Assembly (NCBI GenBank): GCA_047617435.1 | Contig: JBLGBC010000001.1 | Location: 5,502-69,501 of the forward strand | Reading direction: 5' to 3' | Source of the DNA: Lentimonas sp. | GTDB lineage: Bacteria; Verrucomicrobiota; Verrucomicrobiia; Opitutales; Coraliomargaritaceae | Length of the DNA: 64,000 bases | Shown: positions 1-42,451 of the stretch, piece after piece | How the letters are laid out: each line of letters opens with the position of its first letter | Position numbering within the stretch: the first letter of the stretch is position 1 | Made by a program: the position numbers and the translations under genes | Notes under the pieces: model-generated | The model's input: only the letters and a program-made list of their open reading frames with translations | Database searches by the model: none | Told to the model about the DNA's origin: nothing

Positions 1-123
1 GCGTATTCAGTGCTCCAATTGGCGCGACGTAGCATTAAATACAGGTTTGCCTTGCCGCTTCGATTGGGTTGCGATTGTTCTTGATTGCACAAAGTGCTAT
101 TGGATAGCTTTCGTTTTTTATAC

Positions 124-423
124 ATGATAATTACCACAGTTACTCCCCGAGGCCTTGAAGTCTCGTTTGACGTAGAATCGTTGGATGCGGCCAACGCAGC
201 TGAGGTGAAGGCGACCCTGAAAGGGCTTGATTTACAGGGTCAGTCGCACGTCGTGCTCAATCTGCAAAAAGTTGAATTTATCGACAGCTCCGGCATCGGG
301 GCCATTTTGAGTTTTTATAAGGAAATGGAACATCGGGTCAGTTTGCGCCACCCGAGTCCGACGGTACTGAGCGTTCTTGAATTACTTCGCCTGCATACTA
401 TTTTTGAAATCGAATCCGAATAG
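124..423 (+). CDS. STAS-domain protein (SpoIIAA/RsbV-like anti-sigma-factor antagonist)
   Basis: ORF track 85..423 starts at TTG. The in-frame ATG at 124 gives about 99 aa, typical of single-domain STAS. Motif VEFIDSSGIGAIL carries the phosphorylatable DSSG serine (nt 283-294). Confidence 0.85.
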   Translation: MIITTVTPRGLEVSFDVESLDAANAAEVKATLKGLDLQGQSHVVLNLQKVEFIDSSGIGAILSFYKEMEHRVSLRHPSPTVLSVLELLRLHTIFEIESE

Positions 424-437
424 GCTCGAATACGTTT

Positions 438-1523
438 ATGACTGAGCGTGTCGACTTGCCTGCCGGTTTGGATGCGCAATTGACAGCGCATTTTGAGCGG
501 TCACGTCAGTATTTTCAGTCGTTGGGGACCGCTTGCCCGCAAGCGTTGATTCTCGGGGGCGGCTATGGTCGTAACGAGGGGGGTGTCGCAGCGAATGCAG
601 CCGGAGCGCCCTGTTTTTTTAATGATTTGGACTACTTCGTTTTTACGGACCGTCCCCGCGACGCCGCCCTGTTGACTGCAGTGCAGCGGTGGGAGCGTGC
701 CGAGAGCAAACTGCTTGGGGTTGATGTGGAGGCCAAGTGCTTAGCCCGGTGTGATTTAGCGCAGACCGGCGAGTCGATGATGTTTTTTGATTTGGTGTTG
801 GGCCACACGGTGGTGCTCGGGCCCGGTGATTTTTTACAGTCGTATCGGTCGTTGGCTCAAGCTGAAAGCATTCATGCGATTGAGGCGACTCGTTTGCTGT
901 GGAATCGTGGCTCGGGTTTACTTTTTGCGCGAGTGGATCTGGAGGCGGGGCGCGATTTGGAGGTGGTGCATCGCAATCAGTCCAAGGTCAAGCTGGCGTT
1001 GGGGGATGCGTGGTTGACCGTTCGCGGGCTGTATCAGTCTCATGCGTGCGAGCGCCACAAGGTGCTCTGTGAGCAGGTGGATGTAGCTGCGCGGATCAAA
1101 GAGCTGCATCAGTGTGGGCTGGCTTTTAAGTTGAATCCGACTCGTGCGCCCGAATTGGCCGAGTTGGAACGGATACAAGTGGAACTGGTGGCGCATTGGC
1201 GTCGCTGTTTTCTTGAGGTTGAAGCGGTGCGGCTGGCCACGTCTTTTGCCGACTCAGCGGGCTATGTCACGTATCCACAGCGGCTCTTTCCAGCTCGTTC
1301 ACTCTGGCGGAATCTGTTGTTAAGTGCGCGCGATCGGCTCCGGCGCGGGGGTGCGCTGCGACCCTTGGGCGACTATCCGCGGGGGGCATTGCAACGCGTT
1401 TTGCTGGCGCTGTTGGAGGCCGAACCGGATTATTTGAAAGTCAGCCGATTGCTCGGAACGCCGGTTTTCAGCTTGTCAGCTGCCGTGGCGGTGTATCGTA
1501 AGTGGTGGGAGTTTTATAGTTAG
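438..1523 (+). CDS. hypothetical protein with a nucleotidyltransferase-fold-like N-terminus
   Basis: 361-aa ORF with an ATG start, 15 nt after the STAS stop. N-terminus LGGGYGRNEGG...FNDLDYFVF...VDVEAK resembles the pol-beta NTase pattern (G-G/S...D-x-D plus a third acidic residue). The rest is unrecognised. Confidence 0.55.
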   Translation: MTERVDLPAGLDAQLTAHFERSRQYFQSLGTACPQALILGGGYGRNEGGVAANAAGAPCFFNDLDYFVFTDRPRDAALLTAVQRWERAESKLLGVDVEAKCLARCDLAQTGESMMFFDLVLGHTVVLGPGDFLQSYRSLAQAESIHAIEATRLLWNRGSGLLFARVDLEAGRDLEVVHRNQSKVKLALGDAWLTVRGLYQSHACERHKVLCEQVDVAARIKELHQCGLAFKLNPTRAPELAELERIQVELVAHWRRCFLEVEAVRLATSFADSAGYVTYPQRLFPARSLWRNLLLSARDRLRRGGALRPLGDYPRGALQRVLLALLEAEPDYLKVSRLLGTPVFSLSAAVAVYRKWWEFYS

Positions 1524-1530
1524 CCTGTTC

Positions 1531-2739
1531 ATGACCATTCCGAAGCCTCGAGTTCTTTTTTTTATGCCCTATATCCCGTATCCAGTGGATCGGGGCACTT
1601 ATCAGCGGGTGTATCATTTATTACTCGAACTTTCGGGGTCTTTTGAAATTGATCTGGTCTGCCTGCAAGAAGACGCGAGTCGGACGATGGCGCCCTTTGA
1701 GTCGTACACGCGGCGGCGCTTGGCGATCCCGTTTGTGCATCCGCCGTGGCCGAAGCTTTTCCCGCAGCGTCTATTGAATCCGTTGCCGACGACCGTGACG
1801 CATTGGCAGTCTGAGTGGGTGGAATCCGCATTGGCAGAGTTCATCCAAGGGGAGGATTACGATCGGGTGCTCTTTATCGACTTGGTGCTGTGGCCCTACG
1901 TGAAAAAGCTGTTTCCCGATCATCCGCAGCGGATTATGGACCGCAGTCGGGTGGATTGGCTCTTTCAGACTGAGGAGTACACTACCTTGGATTGTAGTTG
2001 GAAGGAGCGTTTCTTGCGGCAGGAAAATTTGTTCAAACTCGCGCGCTTGGAGCGTGCGGCCTACGCCGAGTTGTGTGGCATGATTGTTTGCGGCGCGGAT
2101 GATCGCGATTTTTTGGAGGCGAAACTCGGAGATGCGGAGAAGGTTTTTGTGTTGGCAAATGGCTACAATGAGCAGTTTTTCGATGTGGCTGCCTGGCCGC
2201 GCCAGCCATCGGCGGTGCCGAGTCTTTTGTTTTGTGGTGCGTTGGATTATAGTCCGAACGTGGATGCGATTGATTGGTTTGCGGGTCATATTTGGCCGCA
2301 CATCCACCGAGCGATGCCAGAGGTGATCTGGCGCATTGTGGGTAAATCGCCGGATCATCGTGCGGCCGCTTGGGCGGGGTTGCCGGGGGTTGAACTGGTG
2401 GGGGAGGTGGCAGATGTACGACCGTACTATCAGTCGGCGTGGTTGCAGGTCGTCCCCTTGCGGATCGGCGGGGGTACGCGACTGAAGATTGTGGAATCTC
2501 TGGGCATGTGTTGCCCGGTGGTTTCGACCACTTTGGGCGCGCAAGGTCTCAATTTAAAAGATAACCGGGAGCTGCTGCTGGCGGATCAGGCGGAGGTCTT
2601 CGCTGCGCAGGTCATCCACTTGTTGCGTTCTCCTGCGGAGAGTGCTTCCCTGGCGCGGGCCGGATTGCAGGCCGTACGTGAGAATTACTGCTGGCGTCAG
2701 TTGGGCGTTCAATTAAATGACTACATGCTAAATTTATGA
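1531..2739 (+). CDS. glycosyltransferase, GT-B fold (GT4-like)
   Basis: 402-aa ORF. C-terminal half has LLFCGALDYSPNVDAI...GGGTRLKIVESLGMCCPVVSTTLGAQGL, typical of the GT4/Glycos_transf_1 E-x7-E region. Confidence 0.8.
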   Translation: MTIPKPRVLFFMPYIPYPVDRGTYQRVYHLLLELSGSFEIDLVCLQEDASRTMAPFESYTRRRLAIPFVHPPWPKLFPQRLLNPLPTTVTHWQSEWVESALAEFIQGEDYDRVLFIDLVLWPYVKKLFPDHPQRIMDRSRVDWLFQTEEYTTLDCSWKERFLRQENLFKLARLERAAYAELCGMIVCGADDRDFLEAKLGDAEKVFVLANGYNEQFFDVAAWPRQPSAVPSLLFCGALDYSPNVDAIDWFAGHIWPHIHRAMPEVIWRIVGKSPDHRAAAWAGLPGVELVGEVADVRPYYQSAWLQVVPLRIGGGTRLKIVESLGMCCPVVSTTLGAQGLNLKDNRELLLADQAEVFAAQVIHLLRSPAESASLARAGLQAVRENYCWRQLGVQLNDYMLNL

Positions 2740-4181
2740 GTGCTGCAGGTCGCGATATCGCCTTTCTACTCGGATTACCCTTTAACGTCATGACGATGGA
2801 TCAGGCGGTTGATGATGCTGTGGCGCACATTCAAAGCAGGCGACCGGGCTATTACATTACTGCGAATGCTGATTTCGTGGCGCAGGCGTGTCATAACGAT
2901 GCGTTGAGAGATATAATATTCCATGCCGATCGGATCCTGTGTGATGGGATGCCGCTGGTCTGGTTGTCACGTTATTTTAAGCCGAGCTTACCCGAGCGTG
3001 TTGCTGGATCTGATTTGGTCTTTCGTTTGTTTAAAGAAGCGGATGCACGCAATTGGTCGGTGTTTTTCTTAGGCTCGGATTCGCATACGTTAGGCAATGC
3101 CAGGGCTATCCTGTCACAGGAGTATCCGCGGATGAACTTGTGCGGGACTTTTTCGCCCCCCATTGGCTCGGTCGAGTCGTGGCCGAATGAGGCCATGGTG
3201 GAGGCGATCCAGGCCGCACAGCCGGACCTACTGCTGGTGGCGGTGGGGTGTCCGAAGCAGGAGTTGTGGATTTCCAAATATTATCAAGACCTGGGTGTGC
3301 CGCTTTCAATCGGAATTGGTGCTTCATTGGATTTTGTGTGTGGGACGCAGCGTCGGGCCCCTCGCTGGATTCAACAAGTCGGAATGGAATGGATGTGGCG
3401 GCTGCTCAATAATCCGAAGCGCATGCTCAAACGTTATGCCTTCGATTTCTATTATTTGCTGCTGCTGGTTTATCGTCAATGGCAGTGCCTGCGACAGCGC
3501 GGCTCTGAGCGGGTCGCTGCGGATACTGTAAGTTTAGTTGACGAGCCGCAGGAGCGTGGCGGGGGCGTATTGGAGTCCTCGGTCTGTTGGCTGGTTTGGG
3601 AGGGAGCGGTCGAGTACGCTCATTTGGGCGCGTTGCCTGTTCCTGAGGGTTATAGCGCGCCTGTCTTTATCGATTTATCTCGAGTTGATTTTATCGACAG
3701 TTCGGGGATTGGGCTGTTGGCCAAGGTGGCGCGCCAAGCGCGACAGGCTAAGGTCGTTTTCGGCTTACTTCGGCCGAGTGGAGTGGTTGGCTCGATACTC
3801 AAAGCGATGCAATTGGAGGCTCAATTACCTACTTATGCCGATCGAGCTGCAGCGCTGGCTGCGTTGGTGGGGAGTCCGGGGAACTCAGTCCAACGACTCA
3901 AGCTGTCGCCATCATCTATAACTCAGAACCACTGCGCATGGAGTGAGTCATTGCAAACGGCGGTAGCAGCACTGGCAGCGGGTGGTCGCTTGGTGGTGGA
4001 TCTGAGTGAGATCGACCGGGTCGACTCATTTGCGATATCCTGTTTCGTTGCTCTGCATGAGCAAGCGTTGCAGCGGGGCGCTACGTTTCGAGTTGAGCAT
4101 TTATCCGCACAGGCGGTTCAGGCGATGAAGATGGCGGATGTATATGATACTTTGGTTTATAATGTAGCACAGCATGATTAA
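2736..4181 (+). CDS. WecG/TagA/CpsF-family (GT26) glycosyltransferase fused to two C-terminal STAS domains
   Basis: 481 aa, with an ATGA overlap onto the upstream gene. N-terminal ~250 aa has GT26 hallmarks (ILCDGMPLVWLSR, VAGSDL, VFFLGS, LLLVAVGCPKQELW, GIGASLDF). These are followed by VFIDLSRVDFIDSSGIGLLAKVARQ (STAS 1, DSSG at nt 3696-3707) and LVVDLSEIDRVDSFAISCFVALHEQ (STAS 2). Confidence 0.8.
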   Translation: MSAAGRDIAFLLGLPFNVMTMDQAVDDAVAHIQSRRPGYYITANADFVAQACHNDALRDIIFHADRILCDGMPLVWLSRYFKPSLPERVAGSDLVFRLFKEADARNWSVFFLGSDSHTLGNARAILSQEYPRMNLCGTFSPPIGSVESWPNEAMVEAIQAAQPDLLLVAVGCPKQELWISKYYQDLGVPLSIGIGASLDFVCGTQRRAPRWIQQVGMEWMWRLLNNPKRMLKRYAFDFYYLLLLVYRQWQCLRQRGSERVAADTVSLVDEPQERGGGVLESSVCWLVWEGAVEYAHLGALPVPEGYSAPVFIDLSRVDFIDSSGIGLLAKVARQARQAKVVFGLLRPSGVVGSILKAMQLEAQLPTYADRAAALAALVGSPGNSVQRLKLSPSSITQNHCAWSESLQTAVAALAAGGRLVVDLSEIDRVDSFAISCFVALHEQALQRGATFRVEHLSAQAVQAMKMADVYDTLVYNVAQHD

Positions 4182-5343
4182 ATCGACTGCACACAAGCCC
4201 CGGGTGTTGCTCTCCGCCGGGATGATTCAAGCGGGGCACTCCGGTGTCGGTCGCTACGTGGTTGAGCTAGCGAATCGTATGGCAGCAATGGAGTCGATTG
4301 ACTTGTATGTTGCGGGGTTGGATGCGGATCGTGGCCTTTTTGAGCGGATGGCGGATGACCGTTGGCTTTCGATTCCTGCGGCATTCGGCGGGGGCGTGAA
4401 GAATCTAATCTGGCACCAGTGGCACTTGCCCCGTTTATTGCGCTTGGGGCACTATGATTTGCTGCATATTCCGAGTTATCGGCGTATTGTGGGGTATTGC
4501 CCCGTGCCGCAAATAGCGACGGTGCATGATTGTGCGCCGTTTCATCTGAGGGATAAGTATGGGTTCTTACGGGGTTTGTTTGGGCGTCATCTGGCACCGT
4601 GGTTGGCTCGGCGCTGCGATCGGATCGTGTCGGTCAGTGAGTCTTCCAAACAGGATATCGTGAAGTTTTATCATTTGGGAGCCGAACGGGTGGATGTGGT
4701 ACTTAACGGACTCGATCACCATGCGTACCACCCGATGAGCGCGGAGCAGCTTGCTTCCTTTCGTCAGAACAAAGGATTCAATCAGCCGTATTTTCTGTAT
4801 ATTTCCCGGCTGGAGCATCCGGGAAAAAACCACCTGCGTTTGATTCAGGCGTATGAATCCTATCGGGAGCAATCGGGTGCGAATGTACAATTGGTGTTGG
4901 GCGGAGCGCCTTGGCTGGGGGCGGAGGTGATTGAGGCACGGGTGGCGGCCTCGCCCTACCGTGCGGACATTCGGATGGCTGGATTTTTAGCAGAGTCGGA
5001 TCTGCCCGGCTGGTATGCCGCAGCGGAAGCGTTGATCTTTCCGAGTTTGATGGAAGGCTTTGGGCTGCCGGTGATTGAGGCGCTGGCTTGCGGGTTGCGC
5101 GTAGCGACTTCGAATTGCAGTAGTCTGCCTGAGGTGGGGGGAGCCGCGGCCTTGTATTTTGATCCCTATTCCACGGTAGAAATTGCTGCTGCGCTGCTGA
5201 CTTTGTGCCGGGAAAATGGAGTGGAGCGAGCGAGTCGGATCGAGCAGGGGCTGCAACAGGCGGCCCGATATGATTGGGATCAGGCGGCAATGGCGACTTG
5301 CCAGCTTTATTTAAAGACCATTAATGTTGTTCCATCCCCATAA
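4174..5343 (+). CDS. glycosyltransferase family 4
   Basis: 389 aa. YFLYISRLEHPGKNHLRLIQA...LIFPSLMEGFGLPVIEALACGLRVATSNCSSLPEV is classic GT4. Confidence 0.85.
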   Translation: MIKSTAHKPRVLLSAGMIQAGHSGVGRYVVELANRMAAMESIDLYVAGLDADRGLFERMADDRWLSIPAAFGGGVKNLIWHQWHLPRLLRLGHYDLLHIPSYRRIVGYCPVPQIATVHDCAPFHLRDKYGFLRGLFGRHLAPWLARRCDRIVSVSESSKQDIVKFYHLGAERVDVVLNGLDHHAYHPMSAEQLASFRQNKGFNQPYFLYISRLEHPGKNHLRLIQAYESYREQSGANVQLVLGGAPWLGAEVIEARVAASPYRADIRMAGFLAESDLPGWYAAAEALIFPSLMEGFGLPVIEALACGLRVATSNCSSLPEVGGAAALYFDPYSTVEIAAALLTLCRENGVERASRIEQGLQQAARYDWDQAAMATCQLYLKTINVVPSP

Positions 5344-5364
5344 TTACATTCTGAATGTAGGCTG

Positions 5365-7362
5365 ATGTCCCCTAAACGAAAAAGTAAACCGGCAGTCTTT
5401 AAATTCCCGCTTCCCATTGATCCGATCCGTTTAATCTATGGAGTCGGCGAACGATGGATCTGGTTTATTGTGCTAGCAGTGCTTTTCGGTGTGATCGGTT
5501 GGGTGGTCGGAAGTGTTAAATCCGATGACCGTTACTCAGTATCCCTGCAGTTGATTAAGTCCAACGTTCCGACAGTGATCCAGACCAGCGACGTCGGTCA
5601 AGCCTTCAGGCCACGGGAGTTGAGTGATGACACCTTACTGTCGACCACCTATTCGACCGAAGTGTTGGAGCGTACCGGGGCCCGCTTAGATCCGGTGCGA
5701 TCCTCTCGAGAGGTTAAAGGGATGGTCGAGATTGTCAAACAGCGCAACACCGCACTCTTCTATCTGACGGCGCACTCGCGCATCAGCGCACAAGATGCCA
5801 TCACCTCGGTGTCGATTTGGGCCGACGAAATTATTCGCTTCACGAATAACTTGCAGCGGGAAGAAGCCCGTCAAATGGAAGCCTTTATTTCGGAGCAGTT
5901 GGATACCATCGAAGTACAGCTGGCTCGGGTGAATGATAGTATTTTGGATTTCGCGCGCGAAAATCAGTTTGTGGACGCGGATTCGCAGATCAGTTCGGCG
6001 CTCGCAGCGCATGGCGCATTGGGGGACCAATTAGCGTATACGCGTATCGCATTGAGTTCTAAAGCAGTACAGGTGAATCGTTACCGGCAGGAGTTACGAT
6101 CGCAGAGTCCGCTGGAGTCGGAGCTGAAAGAGAAGAAAGAAGAACTGACCTATTTGCGGGGGCGTTACACCGATGTGAATCCTTTGGTTAAGGAGAAGCT
6201 GTACGAAATCGAGTATATACAAGAGCAGTTGGAGCTGGCTGAAGATGCGCCGATCGGAGAGCTGAAAAACTTCACTGGGAGTCCTTTAGGTAATAATTTG
6301 TATTTGGAACTGATCTCGCTCGAGAACGAGCGTACTCAACTCGAAAACATGTTGGTTGATTTAGAACGACGCTTGGAGGCCAGTGAGCTGCGCATCGCCC
6401 ATTTGCCCGAGAAAGCGCTGCGCTTAAACGAGCTGAAGAGCCGCCGCGATTCATTAATCAAGGCGCAGTCACTCTTGGAAAGTCGCCGGAAAGAGGCCGC
6501 ATTTTACGAGACAAAGGCTCCGGGATATTGGCAGGTTTTTCAGAAGCCGAGCATGAATGAGGTCGCGCTCAGCTCTCAAAACGCGAAGTCCTTTTTACTC
6601 GGAATGATGGGGCTGCTCTTTGGAGGCGGTGTTGCTTTCTTGTTTACCGTGGCACAGGAGATTATCCAGCGGGGGATTCGTACGCCGATTGAGGCTGCGA
6701 TTGTCACCTCTACTTTGCCCGTGTGTCTTTTGCTGACGAGTCGGGCGGAGGATCGCTCTTGGTTCATGCAGCGGGTTTTAAGCGCGGATGAAGCGCTCCA
6801 AAACGAACGAGCCCTCAAGGCTTTTTGGTTGGCACATGAAATCACCAATCACGGCGAAGAGCGTCGACGTTTTTTGTTTGTTTCGATGGAAACTTGTGAT
6901 CGCGAGTCGGTTTTTTGGAGTGCTTTGTTTGATCTGATTCAGTCCGAAGGGCGAACATTGAACTTTTGTAATCTGAGTGGAGTCGAGGACCCTTCTTTTT
7001 CTGAGCTCTCTAAGCATCCGGCAGTGCTGCATTATTTCACCCAGCTGGATGAATTAGCGCAGGTGGATGATGGAATTTTATTTGTACGCTTAGGGCGAAC
7101 TGCCTCAGTTAAAGAGCTCGAACGATTGAAGCAGTCGGAGGCCTACTATTTACTCTCATCTGCCAGTCAGGCGGAGCGCTATGAAAGTCGTAATAAAAGT
7201 GAGATTATGCGCAGGATTTTAGGCCAGGCGGATGGACTCGTGATTGTCGACCATGGAACGACTTCGCTGGCACTCCGGCTACTGAAGCGCTATGAGATGT
7301 TTTTGTTGAGTTGGTATGTGAAAAATATGACTCAAAAAAAGCTCCAAGAGGATTCAGTATGA
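5365..7362 (+). CDS. polysaccharide co-polymerase / chain-length determinant (Wzz/GumC/EpsF-like) with a degenerate C-terminal P-loop-like domain
   Basis: 665 aa. It has an N-terminal TM (WIWFIVLAVLFGVIGWVVG), a long coiled-coil-like periplasmic region and a second TM (FLLGMMGLLFGGGVAFLF). The ~220-aa cytoplasmic tail aligns by eye to BY-kinase domains but has FLFVSMETCDRES where Walker A (GxxGxGKS/T) would be. Confidence 0.7.
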   Translation: MSPKRKSKPAVFKFPLPIDPIRLIYGVGERWIWFIVLAVLFGVIGWVVGSVKSDDRYSVSLQLIKSNVPTVIQTSDVGQAFRPRELSDDTLLSTTYSTEVLERTGARLDPVRSSREVKGMVEIVKQRNTALFYLTAHSRISAQDAITSVSIWADEIIRFTNNLQREEARQMEAFISEQLDTIEVQLARVNDSILDFARENQFVDADSQISSALAAHGALGDQLAYTRIALSSKAVQVNRYRQELRSQSPLESELKEKKEELTYLRGRYTDVNPLVKEKLYEIEYIQEQLELAEDAPIGELKNFTGSPLGNNLYLELISLENERTQLENMLVDLERRLEASELRIAHLPEKALRLNELKSRRDSLIKAQSLLESRRKEAAFYETKAPGYWQVFQKPSMNEVALSSQNAKSFLLGMMGLLFGGGVAFLFTVAQEIIQRGIRTPIEAAIVTSTLPVCLLLTSRAEDRSWFMQRVLSADEALQNERALKAFWLAHEITNHGEERRRFLFVSMETCDRESVFWSALFDLIQSEGRTLNFCNLSGVEDPSFSELSKHPAVLHYFTQLDELAQVDDGILFVRLGRTASVKELERLKQSEAYYLLSSASQAERYESRNKSEIMRRILGQADGLVIVDHGTTSLALRLLKRYEMFLLSWYVKNMTQKKLQEDSV

Positions 7363-8468
7363 GTCGTCGTTTTATCAGTTGCAGTGCCTTGATATGGTTC
7401 TTTGCTTACTCCCTCGCGGCGCTGCCGGAACCCGCGGCACCAGTGCCAATCGGGGTGAGCGAGCGTCCTGTTGTCAGCACTGAAGTGTTTCAAGCGGAGT
7501 CGGAGGTCGTGGCGGAAGCGGAGGTCGAGGTCGTGGCGGAGGCGGAGGTCGTGGTTTCATGGCGTGAGCGCTACACGCTGGGGCCGGGAGATGTCATTAA
7601 TATCCGGTTTTATGGCCGCAGTGATTTGGATCGTGCGGGTGTTCGAATTGCGCCGGATGGAACCCTGAGTTATTTGCAGGTTAATAGCCTCCGGGTGAGT
7701 AATATGACGATTGACGAGTTGCGAGCGACGATGGAGGACTCGCTTCAGGTCTATTATCGTGATCCACGGTTGATCATCATGCCTTGGGAGTTGAAAAGTA
7801 AGCGCTACGTTATTTTGGGCAAGGTTGTGGACAAGGGGGTATTTACGCTGGATCGGCCAATCACCTTGCTTGAGGCCATTGCGCGCAGCCGCGGGATCGA
7901 GACCGGACTCTTTGAGGGCTCGACCGTTGAGATCGCGAATATGGATTTATCCTTTATTGTGCGGGGAGGCGCGCGTATGGATGTGGATTTCGCTAAGCTG
8001 TATTATGAGGGTGATTTGAGTCAGAATGTATTTTTGGAGCCACAGGACTACATCTACCTCGCTTCGAGCCTTTCCAGTGAGTACTTTGTGTTTGGCTCCG
8101 TTGCGATGCCGGGGGCACAGGGCTTTACCAATAAAGCGAGTGTGTTGACTGCGTTAACGCGGCGACAAGGCTTTACGGATGGAGCGTGGAAAAAGCGCGT
8201 TTTGCTTGTGCGTGGGAGTTTGAGCAAGCCGGAGACTCATATTTTGGATGTGCGTGCGATGCTGGCAGGCAAGGAAAAGGATTTCCTGCTGCAGCCCGGC
8301 GATATTATTTATGTCAATGATCGGCCTTGGTACAAAGTTGAGCAGGTGCTGGATTCCGCGATGCGGAGTTTCCTACAGAGTACTACGTCGAGTTGGACCA
8401 ATGTAAATGTGCCCGAGTTGATCACGAGTCCCTTTTTGAATCAGCAAAATTGGAATGGAAGTCAGTAA
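7359..8468 (+). CDS. polysaccharide export protein (Wza/OPX-like)
   Basis: ORF track 7311..8468. The ATG at 7359 gives signal peptide MSRRFISCSALIWFFAYSLAA and overlaps the upstream stop. YTLGPGDVINIRFYG...PDGTLSYLQV is a Poly_export motif, with an SLBB-like C-terminus (LQPGDIIYV). Confidence 0.8.
   Translation: MSRRFISCSALIWFFAYSLAALPEPAAPVPIGVSERPVVSTEVFQAESEVVAEAEVEVVAEAEVVVSWRERYTLGPGDVINIRFYGRSDLDRAGVRIAPDGTLSYLQVNSLRVSNMTIDELRATMEDSLQVYYRDPRLIIMPWELKSKRYVILGKVVDKGVFTLDRPITLLEAIARSRGIETGLFEGSTVEIANMDLSFIVRGGARMDVDFAKLYYEGDLSQNVFLEPQDYIYLASSLSSEYFVFGSVAMPGAQGFTNKASVLTALTRRQGFTDGAWKKRVLLVRGSLSKPETHILDVRAMLAGKEKDFLLQPGDIIYVNDRPWYKVEQVLDSAMRSFLQSTTSSWTNVNVPELITSPFLNQQNWNGSQ
7494..7554 (+). 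repeat. imperfect in-frame tandem repeat (gaggtcgtggcgga-type units) encoding an acidic AEVV-rich linker
   Basis: Read directly: gcggagtcggaggtcgtggcggaagcggaggtcgaggtcgtggcggaggcggaggtcgtgg, which translates to AESEVVAEAEVEVVAEAEVVV. Confidence 0.8.
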
Positions 8469-8470
8469 CG

Positions 8471-9544
8471 ATGAGTCGAATTTGTAATATTATGTTCGCC
8501 TTGGTACTGGCTGTTTTTTCCGGCTGCCAGAGTCGCAATGCGCCGGAAACCTTCGACCCGCGCTCGGAACTGGAGCGAAGCCGATTGGGGTCGAGTCATT
8601 TTATTGAAATGGAAGGCGGGCGTGAACTGCGGGCAGAGTGGTTGCGCCCGAGCTTGGAACCGTACCGCTTGGGAGTGGGGGATTGGGTTGATGTTGAGAT
8701 CTCGGGGGTTGACAGTAGTCGCGCACAGACCTTTGTCATGCCGGATGGTCGCGTGTATTACGATTTGGCTGGTGGCGTTTTGGCCGATGGGTTGACGGTG
8801 GAAATGTTGGGCGCCACACTGGAGGCCGCACTACTTCGTGATTATTCAAGTCCGAGTGTAAATGTCACCTTGCGCGAGGTGAATAGCCGGCGTGCCTGGT
8901 TGCTGGGGCGCCTGAATAAGCCCGGCTTGTACCCGCTCTCACAGCCGACGACACTGCTGGAAGGGATCTCGCTGGCAGGTGGACTTTTTACCTCACGTTT
9001 CAGCGGAACCACTGAAGAGTTGGCCGATTTGGGGCAAAGTTTCGTACTGCGTGACGGGAAGGTACTGCCGATTAATTTAAAGCAGTTGATCAAGGAGGGG
9101 GATTTGTCTCAGAACATCTATTTGGAAGATGGCGACTACGTCTATTTGCCTTCATCCACCTCTCAAAGTGTTTATGTGTTGGGGGAGGTCGTCGCGCCGC
9201 AGTCGATCGGATTTAAGGATGATATTTCACTGGTTTCGGCGATTTCCAAGGCGAGGGGGCCGACGCAGGATGCAAATCTGGAAGGGGTACTGGTTATTCG
9301 GGGCAGTTTGACTGAGCCGCGAGTGGCGGTGGTTGATTTGCGCGCGATTTTTAGTGGTCAAGCGACTGATTTTAAGCTGGAGCCCTTTGATGTGGTCTGG
9401 GTGCCCGACCGCCCCTTTAAACTGTTGGAGCGCTATTTTTGGGTGATTGTTGACTCTGCCGCGACAACCATAGCGGTTCGCGAAGGTGCGAATGCTGTGG
9501 AGGGTGCGGGTTCCACCTCAGTGACGATCCCCATCTCTCGATAA
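8471..9544 (+). CDS. polysaccharide export lipoprotein (Wza/OPX-like), paralog of the upstream gene
   Basis: ORF track 8393..9544. The ATG at 8471 gives a lipoprotein signal MSRICNIMFALVLAVFSGC (lipobox FSGC). YRLGVGDWVDVEISG...PDGRVYYDLAG is a Poly_export motif, followed by SLBB-like repeats. Confidence 0.8.
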   Translation: MSRICNIMFALVLAVFSGCQSRNAPETFDPRSELERSRLGSSHFIEMEGGRELRAEWLRPSLEPYRLGVGDWVDVEISGVDSSRAQTFVMPDGRVYYDLAGGVLADGLTVEMLGATLEAALLRDYSSPSVNVTLREVNSRRAWLLGRLNKPGLYPLSQPTTLLEGISLAGGLFTSRFSGTTEELADLGQSFVLRDGKVLPINLKQLIKEGDLSQNIYLEDGDYVYLPSSTSQSVYVLGEVVAPQSIGFKDDISLVSAISKARGPTQDANLEGVLVIRGSLTEPRVAVVDLRAIFSGQATDFKLEPFDVVWVPDRPFKLLERYFWVIVDSAATTIAVREGANAVEGAGSTSVTIPISR

Positions 9545-11067
9545 TGTCTGGCAGTTTAATTCCTGATCCCGTTCCGGAAGTGCCCTTGTGGAAACGTCAT
9601 TTTTGGCGTAATACAGTCAGTAATTACATTCGGACGGTGACGCGGCTCTTGCTCGGGCTGGTCTTGTTTCGGCTGCTGTTCAGCGGACTCTCAAATGCCG
9701 AATTCGGCTTTTGGTCGCTGCTGTGGTCGCTGTTTGGCTACGGCATACTGTTGGACTTTGGTTTTGGTTTTACCGCGCAAAAGGCGGTGGCAGAGAAGGC
9801 GACTACAGGCGAATGGGAGGAGCTAAGCTGCCTGCTCAGTACTTTGCTGTGGACCTTCGTTGGACTGGCGGTGCTGTTGGGGCTGTTTTTTCTCGCGATC
9901 CGGCTGCCATTTCTGGCGATGCTGGATATTCCGTCGGCCGATTACGGAGCCTTTTCTCTGGCTTACTTGATTTTCTTTGCCGGATTGTCGCTGACCTTTC
10001 CCTTTGGTTTGTTTCCTGAAGTATTGCAAGGGCTGCAGCGCTTGGATTTGGCGAATTGGCTGCGGACCGCTGCGGTTGTTTTGAACTTTGCGGGGATTGC
10101 TACCGCGCTCTATTTCGAGGCGAGTTTTGTAGTTATAGTGGCCGTCAGTGTGGTCACCACGCTACTGCCCAATGTTGTGGCGCTGTTTGTGGTGCGTCGA
10201 ATGATCCCCCGATTATCCCTGTCGCCCCGTAATTTTCGCTGGTCTGCTGTGCGCTCGCAGCTCGGATTTTCGATCGCAGCGTATTTGATCACTTTTAGTA
10301 ACTTATTGATGGCGAAAAGTGATCAAGCAGTACTCGGCTTTACTTTGGGGGTGGGCGTGATCGCCTTGTATCAAGCGGGCTACAAGGTGGCGGAGATGTT
10401 CAATCTCTTTACCATTCAGTTGCAGGAAGCCTTAAGCCCCGCGGCGGCCAGTCTGAATGCTTCCGGCGATGTTGCCGGCTTGCGCGATCTCTTGCTCAAG
10501 AGCTCGCGGCTGACTTTTTTGGTGGCGACTCCACTCTATGCGTTGTGTGCGGTGTATCTAAAGCCGCTGATACAATTGTTAACCGGATTGGAGGCCGTGA
10601 ACGCGCAGACTTTGTTAGTCGGGCATGTGATGTTAATTGCGATTCTTTCCTCCCAGTTAACGAATAGCTGCTCAAAGCGCATTCTGATGATGTGTGGCTA
10701 TGAGAAAAAACTGCTGGTATTGGCTTTGCTGGATGGCGGGGCCAATGTCTTGTTGAGCATTGTATTGGCATTGCAGTTCGGGATGGTGGGCGTGGCTTGG
10801 GGCACTCTCATTCCGACTGTACTGGTAGGCTGGCTGCTTGTGTTGCCTTTGACCCTGCGGTATTTGGAGCTTAGCTGGTGGTACTATGTGCGCTATCATT
10901 TGTCGGTTGCCGCGCCGTTGCTTTTATTTGCGGTCTGTCTTTTTATCACCAGTCGATGGATCCCCATGCCAGATTCGGGCGGATTCTTTAGCTTGTTGCT
11001 GCACGGGAGCTTAAGTGCTGGACCCGCAGCCGGATGGATTTTATTTAGGAAAAGTAAATTGATTTAA
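9544..11067 (+). CDS. Wzx-like oligosaccharide flippase (MOP superfamily polysaccharide biosynthesis protein)
   Basis: 507 aa, highly hydrophobic with about 12-14 predicted TM segments. TAATG overlap with the upstream gene, and positioned inside an EPS operon. Confidence 0.7.
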   Translation: MSGSLIPDPVPEVPLWKRHFWRNTVSNYIRTVTRLLLGLVLFRLLFSGLSNAEFGFWSLLWSLFGYGILLDFGFGFTAQKAVAEKATTGEWEELSCLLSTLLWTFVGLAVLLGLFFLAIRLPFLAMLDIPSADYGAFSLAYLIFFAGLSLTFPFGLFPEVLQGLQRLDLANWLRTAAVVLNFAGIATALYFEASFVVIVAVSVVTTLLPNVVALFVVRRMIPRLSLSPRNFRWSAVRSQLGFSIAAYLITFSNLLMAKSDQAVLGFTLGVGVIALYQAGYKVAEMFNLFTIQLQEALSPAAASLNASGDVAGLRDLLLKSSRLTFLVATPLYALCAVYLKPLIQLLTGLEAVNAQTLLVGHVMLIAILSSQLTNSCSKRILMMCGYEKKLLVLALLDGGANVLLSIVLALQFGMVGVAWGTLIPTVLVGWLLVLPLTLRYLELSWWYYVRYHLSVAAPLLLFAVCLFITSRWIPMPDSGGFFSLLLHGSLSAGPAAGWILFRKSKLI

Positions 11068-11091
11068 CTTTTACATTTCAGATTTGAGTTT

Positions 11092-11107
11092 TGGCTAGGG
11101 CTATGCT
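11092..11107 (+). promoter_or_regulatory. candidate sigma-54 (-24/-12) promoter upstream of the first PEP-CTERM gene
   Basis: TGGCTAGGGCTATGCT has GG and GC at the canonical 12-nt register of TGGCACG-N4-TTGCW. It lies about 108 nt upstream of the ATG at 11215. Single-site match only. Confidence 0.3.
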
Positions 11108-11214
11108 TCGTTACCCGGTTAGTCCAATCCCTGTCCTAGTCTTAATCATATTTTTTTAGCTGCGGCGGCTTCGATGCATGATTAGAGGCTGAACCAGAAA
11201 CGGCCCCATATCCC

Positions 11215-12093
11215 ATGAAGCAACTACTCCATTTTATCCCGTTGTGCTTAGTCTGTGTGTTTACGCCGACGATGTTTGCTCAAACGGAGTCTGCTTTTCA
11301 GGACCAACGACGATTATTAGGCTTGGATATTGTTGGACCGGTCATGCAGGCGGGGAGTGATCCCGCCTCTGATTTGTTTCAGAGGAATGACTTAGCTGGA
11401 TTTAATGATTATATTCGTAGCAATTGGAGTGCCCCGGGCGCCCTTGTTGGGCTGGGCGCGATTTCCTTGGATCCCAATGCCATCGTATTGAATCAGGAGG
11501 CCAATGTGCGTGCTTACTACGTGTCCTCCAGCGACTCGGGGGGCACTCGCAGGCAACGCAATACTTTGGGGTTCAATGTCGAGGATCTGTCGACGGAAAC
11601 TCTCAGCGACTCGCAATTGATTTTTCCTGCGGTTTGGGGCAAAAACACCTATTATTCAGACCCAACCAGCTTGACCAAAGATCCTCGTACTCAATGGCGT
11701 CCGCTGCTTCGGGGGGACTTTGTTGACCTTGGCACCGTCGGTGCGGGCGATCGGTTGAATTTATTTCTGGCTAATCGTCCTGGTGGGACCCGGGGGAACA
11801 CGAATTATTATAGCTCTGATGCAGCGGCTAATCCCGATCAGCTCAACCATATGGTTGCTTTTGCTATACCTGACAGCCCATTCATTTTGTTGGGCTTTGA
11901 GGATCCGTACTCCCGGGATTCAAATGATTTTAATGATAACATTTTCGCCTTCAATATTGGGGTTTCGAACGTAAATTATCTGGCGAATCCAGAGCCGTCC
12001 TTCTGGCTGATGATGGGGGCGCTGTGCGGCCTCGGCGTCTGGCTGTACCGCCGTCAGCAGGGCACTGCCGCATCACCGGATCTTGCGGCTTAA
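11215..12093 (+). CDS. PEP-CTERM sorting-domain protein with a DUF4114-like domain
   Basis: 292 aa. Signal peptide MKQLLHFIPLCLVCVFTPTMFA. LGFEDPYSRDSNDFNDNIFAFNIG is DUF4114-like. C-terminus NPEPSFWLMMGALCGLGVWLYRRQQ has the PEP motif, a hydrophobic helix and a basic cluster. Confidence 0.85.
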   Translation: MKQLLHFIPLCLVCVFTPTMFAQTESAFQDQRRLLGLDIVGPVMQAGSDPASDLFQRNDLAGFNDYIRSNWSAPGALVGLGAISLDPNAIVLNQEANVRAYYVSSSDSGGTRRQRNTLGFNVEDLSTETLSDSQLIFPAVWGKNTYYSDPTSLTKDPRTQWRPLLRGDFVDLGTVGAGDRLNLFLANRPGGTRGNTNYYSSDAAANPDQLNHMVAFAIPDSPFILLGFEDPYSRDSNDFNDNIFAFNIGVSNVNYLANPEPSFWLMMGALCGLGVWLYRRQQGTAASPDLAA

Positions 12094-12617
12094 GATTCAA
12101 ACGCTTTGTTCGTATTTAACATTCGCTCAGGATTTAGGGTGTTTTTGGTTTGCTGTTCGATTCTTCCATGCGGGTGCACTTTCGTCAGTGATTGAGGTCA
12201 GTGATTGAGTGAAACGTACTATCGCTGAGTGAATACCAGAAATATCGAAAAGAGGCGGCAGTTGCGGAGCGTCCCGTCGGGCATTTTCAGGGTGCCGCAG
12301 TTGCACCGCATTTGCAATGGAAGCGGGGTCAATCCGAAGAGTTCCAGCGGGTAATCGCCACGCAAAGCAGTCCATCCAAGCGTGAGCTGTATGCGCCACA
12401 ATCTCTGGCGCATACAGAGGGGATTCGAAGTGCCACCAAGACTGCTGTGGCTACTCGATCGCTGTCAATACCTGCGGGGCGCTTCGAACTCTAGCATCCC
12501 CATTTTAGGGGTATCCCGGTACATCAGTTCGCCGATTGTATCGTCGGGATCGGGCAGTCGCGCATGTGCCGTTTTTTGCCGGCCCAAACCCAGCGGATCC
12601 ATTTTCTTTATACGTTT

Positions 12618-12645
12618 TTGAGTTGATTTCAACTAAGTTTATGCT
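12618..12645 (+). promoter_or_regulatory. candidate sigma-70-like promoter (TTGAGT-16 nt-TATGCT) upstream of the second PEP-CTERM gene
   Basis: Hexamers read directly at 12618-12623 and 12640-12645, about 100 nt upstream of the ATG at 12745. No experimental support. Confidence 0.25.
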
Positions 12646-12744
12646 TGCTTAACTAGTATGATCGAATCGTGTGATTTTCCGATTTTCGCACGTGAGCCTT
12701 AGATTTATGACTAAGACCCGAAATATTAACCGGACCACTGTCTT

Positions 12745-17428: not shown

Positions 17429-17501
17429 GTCGCACTTGTCCGCTATTGGAGCTGCTGCAACCAGCGAGCTATCATTCAAATACGCCGTATTGAGCGATCC
17501 T

Positions 17502-19060: not shown

Positions 19061-19069
19061 GGCACCGGT

Positions 19070-22306: not shown

Positions 22307-22316
22307 GGCGCAGGGC

Positions 22317-30105: not shown

Positions 30106-30111
30106 TGGTGA

Positions 30112-31278: not shown

Positions 31279-31286
31279 GCGTGGAT

Positions 31287-32087: not shown

Positions 32088-32325
32088 TTATATTATGCAA
32101 TAAGGCCGTCTCCTTAAGGTGTTGTCAATTGAGATTATGCAGGGTTCCCAGTCCTTTCCCCTCCCGTCTGAGGCAGTGCGGAGGTTGGAATCGTGCGCGG
32201 GTACTCGATCGATTCAATTCTAGGCATCGTTGGGTTTTGATCCGTGCTCACATTCAGGCGATGTGATGTCTCCGAATCGAAGGCGTGTGGGAGTCACATT
32301 TAATGGGCCATTCTAGCATTTGCCT

Positions 32326-32364
32326 GAAAAGTAAAACGCCCGATAGCTCAAGTGCTATCGGGCG
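32326..32364 (-). terminator. rho-independent terminator downstream of the DUF481 gene
   Basis: Perfect 11-bp stem cgcccgatagc/gctatcgggcg (32337-32347 and 32354-32364) with a 6-nt loop. On the minus strand it is followed by TTTTACTTTTC. Confidence 0.75.

Positions 32365-41617: not shown

Positions 41618-42451
<834 letters not shown>

What the first reader, a model, noticed from the sequence alone, without database searches (positions are those of the whole stretch)
2736..4181. GT26 (WecG/TagA-type) glycosyltransferase covalently fused to two STAS domains
**Seen in sequence:**
- The first ~250 aa carry GT26 hallmarks.
- The last ~200 aa form two STAS-like units.
- The first unit keeps the canonical phospho-serine context FIDSSGIG (nt 3696-3707), nearly identical to the free STAS at 124..423 (FIDSSGIG).
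- The second unit is diverged (VDSFAIS).

**Inference:** An enzyme for the committed second step of repeat-unit assembly carrying its own partner-switch receiver suggests phosphorylation-dependent gating, or recruitment of the enzyme. The free STAS may act as a competitor for the same kinase.
Basis: partly seen in the sequence, partly recalled or inferred. Interest (0 to 1): 0.8.

Follow-up and report, generated by a model that had tools for sequence, protein, structure and literature searches.

The report
Sugar-transferase enzyme with built-in phospho-switch domains
A polysaccharide-building enzyme in a marine Verrucomicrobium (Lentimonas) carries two regulatory STAS domains on its tail. Its gene cluster also encodes the kinase/phosphatase that normally controls such domains, so slime production is probably switched on and off at the enzyme itself; this was shown experimentally only in 2026, for a different enzyme in cyanobacteria.

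Summary
ORF 2736..4181 (+) encodes 481 aa. It has a complete GT26 (WecG/TagA) glycosyltransferase (Pfam E=1.9e-57, all TagA catalytic residues kept), a disordered linker, and two STAS domains that each pass Pfam's cut-off alone.

It is not an assembly artefact. The identical ORF was assembled in at least four independent datasets, and hundreds of homologs share the architecture.

That pair is invariant in both units across 54 two-STAS homologs of 35-57% identity.

The "HATPase" gene at 28390..30105 is an RsbW-type Ser kinase fused to a PP2C phosphatase, followed by a receiver-domain gene. Across Verrucomicrobiota this pair, a free STAS and the enzyme are syntenic. An Anaerolineae locus pairs a GT26-STAS-STAS with a free STAS, a PP2C and an RsbW kinase.

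Best reading: reversible Ser phosphorylation of the fused STAS domains gates an early exopolysaccharide assembly step.

Closest precedents are SypA/SypE in Vibrio fischeri and the STAS-fused priming transferase All4160 in Anabaena (2026). This is a new variant of a known kind, of moderate interest. Phosphorylation itself is untested.

The parts
2736..4181 (+). Whole gene: GT26 glycosyltransferase fused to a tandem STAS-STAS tail (481 aa)
   Evidence: ORF. Pfam WecG + 2x STAS. A 100% identical protein is annotated in a Lentimonas MAG. The same ORF was assembled in several independent samples.
2757..3503 (+). GT26 catalytic core (aa 8-202) plus the TagA-type C-terminal appendage helices (aa 210-256)
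   Evidence: AF2 model. Foldseek to TagA/TarA, TM 0.90-0.94. TagA residues T37/N39/D65/R83/Q167/E168/R214/R221 align to T42/N44/D70/R88/Q175/E176/R222/R229 (PMC6493773). All are invariant in 83 homologs.
3504..3584 (+). Low-confidence linker (aa 257-283) between the appendage helix and STAS1
   Evidence: pLDDT <50 for aa 263-276. This stretch is poorly conserved in alignment A1.
3585..3869 (+). STAS1 (aa 284-378). Candidate phospho-acceptor Ser322 (codon 3699-3701) lies in FIDSSGIG.
   Evidence: Pfam STAS 40.7 bits on its own. D321 is kept in 83/83 and S322 in 81/83 homologs; the two exceptions are Ala. Helix 322-337 starts at the Ser, as in SpoIIAA.
3888..4160 (+). STAS2 (aa 385-475). Candidate phospho-acceptor Ser431 (codon 4026-4028) lies in VDSFAIS.
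   Evidence: Pfam STAS_2 44.6 bits on its own. D430 is kept in 53/54 and S431 in 54/54 two-STAS homologs. Helix 431-446 starts at the Ser.
124..423 (+). Free single-domain STAS protein (99 aa from the ATG; SypA-like position as first gene of the locus)
   Evidence: Pfam STAS E=3.6e-13. Called as 99 aa in public assemblies. Conserved at this position in related loci.
438..1523 (+). Conserved 361-aa protein with a predicted nucleotidyltransferase fold, always next to the free STAS
   Evidence: No Pfam or NCBIfam hit. AF2 pLDDT 96.3. Foldseek to ANT(4'), HalB, MntA and GlnE. Invariant GGYGR.EGG and D63xD65. Synteny.
1531..2739 (+). GT4 glycosyltransferase (TIGR03087 stp1-like), translationally coupled upstream of the fusion gene
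   Evidence: Pfam/NCBIfam. Fused N-terminally to GT26-STAS in P0079, and to GT26 in L018.
4174..5343 (+). GT4 glycosyltransferase, translationally coupled downstream
   Evidence: Pfam. Fused C-terminally to GT26-STAS in P0053, P0057, P0060, P0062 and P0063.
28390..30105 (-). Bifunctional RsbW-type Ser kinase (aa ~14-140) + GAF-like middle + PP2C/SpoIIE phosphatase (aa 376-568)
   Evidence: Pfam HATPase_c_2 E=3.1e-17 and SpoIIE E=2.4e-41. PDB sequence matches to SpoIIAB/RsbW and to PP2C proteins. N-box E51..N54N55, G1 D86xGxG, G2 GGRG. It is the only such gene in the window.
28025..28393 (-). Stand-alone receiver-domain (REC) protein, overlapping the kinase-phosphatase gene's end
   Evidence: Pfam Response_reg E=1.8e-21. 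The same gene order is found in L001, L003 and L009-L014.
26874..28028 (-). Phosphodiesterase/alkaline-phosphatase-superfamily protein, last gene of the kinase operon
   Evidence: Pfam Phosphodiest. phmmer E=1e-142 to 1e-148 against orthologs in other genera.
30112..31278 (-). Left-handed beta-helix (hexapeptide-repeat) protein, conserved partner of the priming transferase
   Evidence: Pfam Hexapep/GMPPB_C. Synteny.
31287..32087 (-). Small Bac_transf phosphoglycosyl transferase (priming enzyme; no STAS domain here)
   Evidence: Pfam Bac_transf E=8e-62, 266 aa.

Best explanation
**What it is.** The gene encodes an active GT26 lipid-linked-sugar glycosyltransferase. It belongs to a PEP-CTERM/exosortase exopolysaccharide locus. 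Its membrane-binding, active-site-completing C-terminal appendage is followed by two STAS domains.

**Proposed mechanism (inferred).**
- The RsbW-type kinase / PP2C phosphatase encoded in the same locus adds and removes phosphate on Ser322 (STAS1), and probably on Ser431 (STAS2). A separate receiver protein steers it, and in some relatives an H-NOX/hybrid-kinase relay does.
- It likely acts the same way on the free STAS protein.
- By analogy with SypA and All4160, the unphosphorylated form allows the enzyme to work. Phosphorylation shuts down this early repeat-unit step. It could do so by disturbing the appendage/membrane-bound active state or the complex with the two flanking GT4 enzymes.

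**Shown here:** the architecture, intact catalytic and phospho-acceptor residues, and conserved genetic linkage with the kinase/phosphatase.

**Inferred only:** that phosphorylation occurs, its sign, and how it reaches the active site.
For: **The parts are intact.**
- Architecture and folds are confirmed.
- All TagA catalytic and appendage residues are kept and are invariant in 83 homologs (PMC6493773).
- Asp-Ser is invariant in both STAS units across 54 homologs of 35-57% identity. Each Ser sits at the N-cap of helix alpha2, aligned with SpoIIAA S58.
- The kinase keeps its N, G1 and G2 boxes, and the PP2C domain matches at E=2.4e-41.

**Genetic linkage.**
- The window holds exactly one RsbW-type kinase/PP2C and three STAS units.
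- The kinase-PP2C plus REC genes lie within 10 kb of the fusion gene in L001, L003, L006, L008-L011, L013 and L014.
- They share a contig with the fusion in 16 further cases, covering one-STAS and triple-fusion lineages.
- The Anaerolineae locus L021 reads PGT, GT26-STAS-STAS, free STAS, GAF-PP2C, RsbW kinase.

**Natural variants.**
- Lineages whose STAS tails lack the Ser (L016, L022) show no kinase or PP2C in their flanks.
- The only substitutions at S322 are to Ala. That fits 'unphosphorylated = active'.

**Experimental precedent.**
- All4160 is inactivated by phosphorylation of S74 and reactivated by the PP2C HenR (PMC13555669).
- Unphosphorylated SypA is the active form (PMC10120452).
Against: - There is no direct evidence of phosphorylation.
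- Asp-Ser at the N-cap of alpha2 is also a structural feature of many STAS domains.
- In the window the kinase operon lies 24 kb away on the other strand. In several loci (L002, L004, L015, L017) it is not within 10 kb.
- Ser-less STAS tails in L016 and L022 show the domains are retained without phospho-control.
- The STAS2 motif (DS[RFY]A) departs from the DSSG context preferred by SpoIIAB-type kinases.
- I could not inspect model coordinates or run a kinase-STAS complex prediction.
- In triple fusions STAS sits as a linker between two GT domains. That also fits a purely structural role.
Confidence: 0.6

Rival explanations
1. The STAS domains are protein-protein docking modules. They hold the early glycosyltransferases (GT4, GT26, GT4) and perhaps the priming enzyme together at the membrane. 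Phosphorylation is irrelevant or secondary.
For: - 'Rosetta-stone' fusions (separate genes here, one polypeptide elsewhere) join GT26-STAS to the downstream GT4 (P0053/57/60/62/63) or the upstream GT4 (P0079). In these the STAS lies between enzyme domains.
- STAS tails without the Ser persist in L016 and L022.
- STAS domains serve as scaffolds in MlaB and SLC26, which appear among the fold matches.
Against: - Asp-Ser is invariant in both units over deep divergence.
- The fusion is tightly linked to a kinase/PP2C in two phyla.
- L018 fuses GT4 to GT26 with no STAS at all, so STAS is not needed as a linker.
- The two readings are not exclusive: phosphorylation could regulate docking.
Confidence: 0.2
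2. The fused STAS domains are an input rather than an output. By binding or absorbing the kinase, the enzyme reports its own state (for example substrate load or membrane binding). That sets the phosphorylation of the free STAS, which is the real effector. This is the competitor or decoy model.
For: - There are three STAS units but one kinase/phosphatase in the window.
- The free STAS and STAS1 share the FIDSSGIG site.
- In V. fischeri the free STAS SypA is the downstream effector, with an unknown target (PMC10120452).
Against: - No free-STAS target is identified here.
- Triple-fusion locus L004 has no free STAS within 10 kb, yet it keeps the fused STAS with DSSG.
- In All4160 the fused STAS is itself the regulated output (PMC13555669).
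Confidence: 0.1
3. The STAS domains sense a small ligand (a nucleotide, nucleotide-sugar or lipid) and tune the enzyme allosterically, independently of the kinase.
For: Some STAS domains are reported to bind nucleotides; the reference list of review PMC8256260 includes a paper on the GTP-binding properties of SpoIIAA. The fold matches include SulP/SLC26 STAS domains.
Against: I identified no ligand-binding motif. The conserved positions are those of the phospho-site loop. This reading does not explain the linkage to a kinase/PP2C.
Confidence: 0.05
4. The fusion is a sequencing or assembly artefact: a frameshift or chimera joining a GT26 gene to separate STAS genes.
For: None found.
Against: - The identical 481-aa ORF occurs on contigs from JGI 3300054696, Logan SRR28417637 and SRR28417279, and an NCBI MAG.
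- 436 database proteins match at E<=1e-5. Nearly all of the 120 best carry WecG plus STAS, including isolates with complete genomes (Coraliomargarita algicola, Rubellicoccus peritrichatus).
- Sixty further 50%-identity cluster representatives carry GT26 upstream of the STAS tail.
Confidence: 0.01

Closest known systems
All4160 / XssP-type STAS-fused phosphoglycosyl transferases of cyanobacteria (Harada, Matsuoka & Ehira 2026, PMC13555669; preprint 10.64898/2026.04.08.717354)
   Same: A polysaccharide biosynthesis enzyme carries a covalently fused STAS domain with a conserved phospho-Ser. An RsbW-type kinase and a SpoIIE/PP2C phosphatase act on it. Regulation falls on the enzyme, not on a sigma factor.
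   Different: - In All4160 one STAS sits N-terminal to a Bac_transf priming enzyme, with a predicted transmembrane segment between them. Here two STAS sit C-terminal to a peripheral GT26 enzyme, and the locus's Bac_transf (31287..32087) has no STAS.
- The phylum differs.
- Kinase and phosphatase are one polypeptide here.
- A free STAS and a nucleotidyltransferase-like partner are also present.
SypA / SypE of the Vibrio fischeri syp polysaccharide locus
   Same: - A small free STAS protein is the first gene of an exopolysaccharide locus.
- A single protein combines an RsbW-like Ser kinase and a PP2C phosphatase, under receiver-domain control.
- Control is exerted below the level of transcription (PMC10120452, PMC8256260).
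   Different: - SypE has its REC domain between the kinase and the PP2C. Here the middle region is GAF-like and REC is a separate adjacent gene.
- SypA's target is unknown, and no STAS-fused glycosyltransferase is described for syp.
- Here the STAS is also built into a GT.
TagA/TarA and WecG (GT26, GT-E fold) glycosyltransferases
   Same: The fold is the same, as are the catalytic Thr/Asp/Arg set and the C-terminal appendage that supplies Arg residues and membrane binding (PMC6493773).
   Different: - Characterised members end after the appendage (~245 aa). This protein continues for another 225 aa with a linker and two STAS domains.
- The donor and acceptor sugars are unknown. The NCBIfam equivalog scores are far below cut-off (EpsA 181 vs 500; TarA 122 vs 350).
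Canonical partner-switching modules (SpoIIAA/SpoIIAB/SpoIIE; RsbV/RsbW/RsbU; RsbS/RsbT)
   Same: The STAS fold is the same, with a phospho-Ser after Asp at the start of helix alpha2, a GHKL-type Ser kinase and a PP2C phosphatase.
   Different: No sigma or anti-sigma output is evident. The STAS is part of an enzyme, and the kinase and phosphatase are fused.

Membership tests
GT26 (WecB/TagA/CpsF, Pfam PF03808) | Profile match above the curated threshold | tested here: met
   PF03808 194 bits vs 27.4. TIGR00696 129 bits vs 69.
GT26 (WecB/TagA/CpsF, Pfam PF03808) | TagA-type (GT-E) fold | tested here: met
   Foldseek to 7mpk, 5wb4 and 7n41: TM 0.90-0.94 normalised to the target, E~1e-15.
GT26 (WecB/TagA/CpsF, Pfam PF03808) | Catalytic Thr/Asp and pocket residues, plus the C-terminal appendage arginines (TagA T37, D65, R83, Q167, E168, R214, R221) | tested here: met
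   They align to T42, D70, R88, Q175, E176, R222 and R229. All are invariant in 83 homologs. Residue roles are taken from PMC6493773.
GT26 (WecB/TagA/CpsF, Pfam PF03808) | Transfers the second sugar onto a polyprenyl-diphosphate-linked monosaccharide | not testable with these tools
   Inferred from characterised members and from conserved adjacency to a Bac_transf priming enzyme. No NCBIfam equivalog threshold is reached.
STAS / anti-sigma-factor antagonist domain (PF01740, PF13466) | Profile match above the curated threshold for each unit on its own | tested here: met
   STAS1 40.7 bits vs 22.6. STAS2 STAS_2 44.6 bits vs 29.2.
STAS / anti-sigma-factor antagonist domain (PF01740, PF13466) | STAS fold | tested here: met
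   Foldseek to SpoIIAA (1th8_B), RsbV (6m36_B) and 4hyl: probability 1.00, TM ~0.7. The model's strand-helix order matches.
STAS / anti-sigma-factor antagonist domain (PF01740, PF13466) | Phosphorylatable Ser following Asp at the N-terminus of helix alpha2 | tested here: met
   D321-S322 and D430-S431 are invariant or nearly so.
STAS / anti-sigma-factor antagonist domain (PF01740, PF13466) | Is actually phosphorylated by a cognate kinase | not testable with these tools
   The evidence is linkage only.
STAS / anti-sigma-factor antagonist domain (PF01740, PF13466) | Antagonises an anti-sigma factor to release a sigma factor | not tested
   No sigma factor gene was seen in the polysaccharide locus at 1-32 kb. 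The kinase is fused to a PP2C, as in SypE, where the STAS is the output.
SypA/SypE-type control of a polysaccharide locus | Free single-domain STAS with a phospho-Ser, encoded in the polysaccharide locus | tested here: met
   124..423, 99 aa, with FIDSSGIG.
SypA/SypE-type control of a polysaccharide locus | One protein with an RsbW-like kinase and a PP2C phosphatase | tested here: met
   28390..30105: HATPase_c_2 + SpoIIE. PDB matches.
SypA/SypE-type control of a polysaccharide locus | Central receiver domain inside the kinase-phosphatase protein (tripartite SypE architecture) | tested here: not met
   The middle region gives only weak GAF hits below cut-off. REC is a separate 122-aa gene at 28025..28393.
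STAS-fused priming transferase (All4160/XssP type) | STAS N-terminal to a Bac_transf domain | tested here: not met
   Here the STAS units are C-terminal to GT26. The locus's Bac_transf protein is 266 aa with no STAS hit.

The most novel reading that the evidence does not exclude
The fusion works as a Rosetta stone: it points to early lipid-linked glycosyltransferases as the direct targets of STAS proteins in polysaccharide loci generally. That would include the long-unidentified target of SypA-type free STAS proteins.

In Verrucomicrobiota the switch may be multi-layered:
- two phospho-sites on the enzyme;
- a free STAS acting in trans;
- a strictly co-conserved nucleotidyltransferase-fold protein (438..1523) that may add a second kind of modification, such as AMPylation, to a STAS or to the sugar chain.
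Probability: 0.25. Interest if true: 0.75.

Novelty: new variant of a known kind. Interest (0 to 1): 0.55.

Why it matters
How bacteria switch exopolysaccharide production after transcription is poorly understood.
- In Vibrio fischeri the target of the STAS protein SypA was still described as unknown in 2023 (PMC10120452).
- Only in 2026 was a fused-STAS priming enzyme shown to be gated by phosphorylation in a cyanobacterium.

This locus shows the same logic built into a different enzyme class (GT26) in a different phylum, with two receiver units. It comes with a complete and strongly syntenic set of regulators. That suggests STAS-mediated control of lipid-linked sugar assembly is a general strategy that evolved repeatedly.

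It also gives concrete residues to test (Ser322, Ser431) and concrete partners. Lentimonas and its relatives are abundant marine polysaccharide specialists, so control of their own slime layer also has ecological interest.

Tried and rejected
1. **Assembly or frameshift artefact:** rejected.
2. **28390..30105 as a histidine kinase:** rejected. It is HATPase_c_2 (RsbW-type) plus PP2C.
3. **STAS2 as a degenerate copy:** rejected. Its Asp-Ser is invariant.
4. **Taxonomic census in GTDB genomes:**
Most of the 80 loci kept were plain GT26 genes.
   - It shows presence in Verrucomicrobiota, one Anaerolineae MAG and one Bryobacterales MAG, but not frequencies.
5. **Single-sequence phmmer with STAS2:** it found nothing in the related loci, because STAS2 is too divergent. 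The STAS2 column is therefore uninformative. Conservation was read from alignments instead.
6. **Inter-domain geometry:** model coordinates and PAE are not exposed. I could not see whether the STAS units pack on the GT26 appendage. pTM 0.82 only hints at a defined arrangement.
8. **Kinase-PP2C homolog search:** it did not return the window's own protein (best hit 63%). It was still usable for contig co-occurrence.
9. **Literature search for GT26+STAS, WecG+STAS or Verrucomicrobia+STAS:** no relevant paper in the held library.
10. **Pfam and NCBIfam on the 361-aa protein:** no hit. Only the fold search was informative.


Full report
**1.

ORF 2736..4181 (+) is a clean 481-codon reading frame. 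Its ATG overlaps the stop of the upstream GT4 gene, and its stop overlaps the ATG of the downstream GT4 gene. The three genes are therefore translationally coupled.

Pfam finds these domains on the whole protein:
- Glyco_tran_WecG at aa 64-234 (E=1.9e-57).
- Two STAS stretches (STAS_2 E=6e-20; STAS E=4.2e-17).

Scanned as separate fragments, each unit passes the curated cut-off alone:
- STAS1: 40.7 bits against 22.6.
- STAS2: 44.6 bits against 29.2.

Motif positions:
- FIDSSGIG is aa 319-326 (nt 3690-3713).
- VDSFAIS is aa 429-435 (nt 4020-4040).
- The free STAS at 124..423 also has FIDSSGIG, but it is only 23-33% identical to STAS1 overall.

An AlphaFold2 model built on 83 homologs has pLDDT 89.7 and pTM 0.82. 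Foldseek matches TagA/TarA at TM 0.90-0.94 and SpoIIAA/RsbV-type STAS proteins at TM ~0.7.

**2. It is not an artefact**

- The identical 481-aa protein is encoded on contigs from several independent samples: JGI 3300054696, Logan SRR28417637 and SRR28417279, and an NCBI Lentimonas MAG.
- A database search found 436 relatives at E<=1e-5. Nearly all of the best 120 combine WecG with STAS. They include isolates with complete genomes: Coraliomargarita algicola, Rubellicoccus peritrichatus, Cerasicoccus spp. and Lentimonas spp..
- Three length classes exist:
  - about 385 aa, with one STAS;
  - about 485 aa, with two STAS;
  - about 740-790 aa, where the neighbouring GT4 genes are fused on as well. 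GT26-STAS-GT4 occurs in P0053/57/60/62/63, and GT4-GT26-STAS in P0079.
- A search of 1.84 billion cluster representatives with the STAS-STAS tail alone returned only 267 hits at E<=1e-3. Sixty of the 137 new proteins among the best 150 have a GT26 domain upstream, and most keep DS in both units.

**3. Anatomy**

- The TagA residues shown or proposed to matter for catalysis are T37, N39, D65, R83, Q167, E168, R214 and R221 (PMC6493773). They align to T42, N44, D70, R88, Q175, E176, R222 and R229. All are invariant in the 83-sequence alignment. The enzyme looks active.
- It retains the C-terminal appendage (helices 210-256). In TagA this appendage binds the membrane and completes the active site of the active monomer (PMC6493773).
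- A low-confidence linker (aa 257-283) follows, then STAS1 (284-378) and STAS2 (385-475).
- In both units an Asp-Ser pair sits where a strand ends and helix alpha2 begins (helices start at 322 and 431).
- Across 54 two-STAS homologs at 35-57% identity, conservation is: D321 and S322 in 54/54, D430 in 53/54, S431 in 54/54.
- The consensus motifs differ. STAS1 is F[IM]DSSGLG. STAS2 is FIDS[RFY]A[VI]G, which recalls RsbS. So STAS2 is a distinct subtype, not a decayed one.
- In the wider set, S322 is replaced only twice, both times by Ala (P0094, P0107).

**4. Surroundings**

The first ~32 kb of the window is one exopolysaccharide / PEP-CTERM locus.

Genes on the + strand:
- free STAS (124..423)
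- 361-aa unknown (438..1523)
- stp1-like GT4 (1531..2739)
- the fusion (2736..4181)
- GT4 (4174..5343)
- a 665-aa protein with no Pfam hit (5365..7362)
- two Wza-like exporters
- a flippase
- two DUF4114 proteins ending in PEP-CTERM signals
- a TPR protein
- the exosortase (15569..16363)
- an EpsI-like protein
- another GT4

Genes on the - strand:
- a Wzy-like polymerase
- four GTs
- a DHH-CBS pyrophosphatase
- a Phosphodiest-family protein (26874..28028)
- a 122-aa receiver protein (28025..28393)
- a 571-aa protein (28390..30105)
- a hexapeptide-repeat protein (30112..31278)
- a small Bac_transf priming transferase (31287..32087)

In fact:
- The N-terminus is an RsbW/SpoIIAB-type Ser kinase. 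Evidence: HATPase_c_2 E=3.1e-17, PDB matches to SpoIIAB and RsbW, and N, G1 and G2 boxes present.
- The middle is weakly GAF-like.
- The C-terminus is a SpoIIE/PP2C phosphatase (E=2.4e-41).

It is the only such gene in the window, against three STAS units.

**5. Comparative evidence**

In Rubellicoccus, a Luteolibacter MAG, Cerasicoccus, and Akkermansiaceae and Verrucomicrobiaceae MAGs the two blocks are adjacent and divergent:
- Block 1: free STAS, 362-aa protein, GT4, GT26-STAS-STAS, GT4.
- Block 2: Bac_transf, hexapeptide protein, (H-NOX + hybrid kinase + REC-HisKA in some), kinase-PP2C, REC, Phosphodiest.

Linkage of the kinase-PP2C to the fusion:
- It lies within 10 kb of the fusion in L001, L003, L006, L008-L011, L013 and L014.
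- Where it is further away, as in the window and in Coraliomargarita, its ortholog is still on the same contig or genome in 16 cases. They include the triple-fusion contig.

Outside the phylum:
- An Anaerolineae MAG (L021) encodes, in order: Bac_transf, a 523-aa GT26-STAS-STAS (FLDSTALG in STAS1), a sugar-nucleotidyltransferase/PGT fusion, a free STAS (FIDSAALS), a GAF-PP2C and a 143-aa RsbW-type kinase.
- A Bryobacterales MAG (L022) and one Verrucomicrobiales MAG (L016) have STAS-like tails without the Asp-Ser. Their flanks contain no kinase or PP2C.

The sample is small, but the pattern fits a phospho-switch that some lineages have lost: Ser present goes with kinase/phosphatase present, and Ser absent goes with none.

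**6. Mechanism**

Most likely (confidence ~0.6), the kinase/PP2C reversibly phosphorylates Ser322, probably Ser431, and the free STAS. The receiver protein would steer it. This gates an early lipid-linked assembly step.

The sign is inferred from three observations:
- Unphosphorylated SypA is the active form (PMC10120452, PMC8256260).
- All4160 is inactivated by phosphorylation of S74 and rescued by S74A (PMC13555669).
- Here, nature tolerates S322A.

The STAS tail starts immediately after the appendage that controls TagA's membrane-bound active state. A plausible route is therefore interference with that state, or with docking of the two GT4 partners that are fused to it in other genomes. That last step is speculation.

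Rival readings:
- a phosphorylation-independent scaffold (0.2);
- a decoy or input role towards the free STAS (0.1);
- ligand sensing (0.05);
- artefact (0.01).

'Second step of repeat-unit assembly' rests on what characterised GT26 enzymes do and on conserved adjacency to a priming transferase. No NCBIfam equivalog cut-off is reached (EpsA 181 vs 500), so the sugars are unknown.

**7. Relation to what is known**

- The protein passes every testable GT26 and STAS membership criterion.
- The regulatory set works like SypA/SypE but fails the tripartite SypE architecture, because REC is a separate gene.
- It works like All4160/XssP but is not a member of that type. Those proteins have one STAS N-terminal to Bac_transf. 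Here two STAS are C-terminal to GT26, and the locus's Bac_transf has no STAS.
- JGI's automatic annotation already calls one relative 'WecB/TagA/CpsF family protein/anti-anti-sigma factor', so the architecture is visible in databases.
- I found no paper that discusses it.

**8. Verdict**

This is a real, conserved and experimentally uncharacterised domain fusion: a new variant of a recently established kind of regulation. Interest is moderate (0.55).
- A specialist would not be astonished after the 2026 Anabaena work.
- The tandem receivers, the cross-phylum linkage to kinase/phosphatase genes and the GT-GT-GT fusions make a concrete, testable model.
- They also offer a lead on what SypA-like STAS proteins act on.

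The co-conserved nucleotidyltransferase-fold protein next to the free STAS is the most unexplained element. It deserves its own follow-up.

Noticed in passing
window 438..1523 (+): A 361-aa 'hypothetical' protein with no Pfam or NCBIfam hit. The AF2 model is very confident (pLDDT 96). Its fold matches Pol-beta-type nucleotidyltransferases: ANT(4'), Hailong HalB, MntA and the GlnE adenylyltransferase domain. It has invariant GGYGR.EGG and DxD motifs. In Verrucomicrobiota it always lies directly downstream of the free STAS gene. It could modify a STAS protein or a sugar.
   Followed up: partly
window 26874..28028 (-): A Phosphodiest/alkaline-phosphatase-superfamily protein is the last gene of the kinase-PP2C/REC operon. 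It is by far the most conserved member of the module (phmmer E=1e-142 to 1e-148 between genera). Its role in the switch or in polymer modification is unknown.
   Followed up: no
L001 2131..5349, L006 1303..5380 (Rubellicoccus CP136920 and a related MAG): In some relatives an H-NOX (HNOB) protein, a PAS hybrid histidine kinase and a REC-HisKA protein are inserted right next to the kinase-PP2C gene. This suggests a gas (NO)-type input to the switch. The insert is absent from the window.
   Followed up: no
window 11215..12093 and 12745..13614 (+): Two paralogous DUF4114 proteins have signal peptides. They end in NPEPSFWLMMGA..GLGVWLYRR, a PEP-CTERM sorting signal. They are likely substrates of the exosortase at 15569..16363.
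   Followed up: partly
P0053, P0057, P0060, P0062, P0063 (L004 10001..12265); P0079; L018 484..2454: Natural gene fusions join the three adjacent glycosyltransferases in different combinations: GT26-STAS-GT4, GT4-GT26-STAS, and GT4-GT26 without STAS. This argues that the three enzymes act as one complex.
   Followed up: partly
L016 9668..11368 and L022 9983..11335: These are GT26 proteins whose STAS-like tails lack the Asp-Ser phospho-site. Their 10-kb flanks show no kinase or PP2C. P0094 and P0107 carry a natural S322A (IDAAGLG).
   Followed up: partly
L021 9935..16089 (Anaerolineae MAG WFSA01000131): An independent polysaccharide locus in Chloroflexota holds a GT26-STAS-STAS, a free STAS, a GAF-PP2C and a stand-alone RsbW-type kinase in one gene row. 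Its STAS2 has Thr-Ser (FLTSAGLA) instead of Asp-Ser.
   Followed up: partly
window 7311..8468 and 8393..9544 (+): Two tandem Wza-like outer-membrane polysaccharide export paralogs (Poly_export + SLBB). The pair is conserved in related loci.
   Followed up: no
proteins P0250, P0255-P0257 and about 70 others: The nearest non-GT26 relatives of the STAS-STAS tail are ~170-290-aa proteins, many matching in two stretches. They could be free-standing tandem-STAS proteins or gene fragments; I did not resolve which.
   Followed up: no
window 1..64000: GC skew is positive throughout (about +0.1 to +0.2). It dips to near zero only at 28-34 kb, where genes are on the minus strand. GC content is 46-59%.
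   Followed up: no
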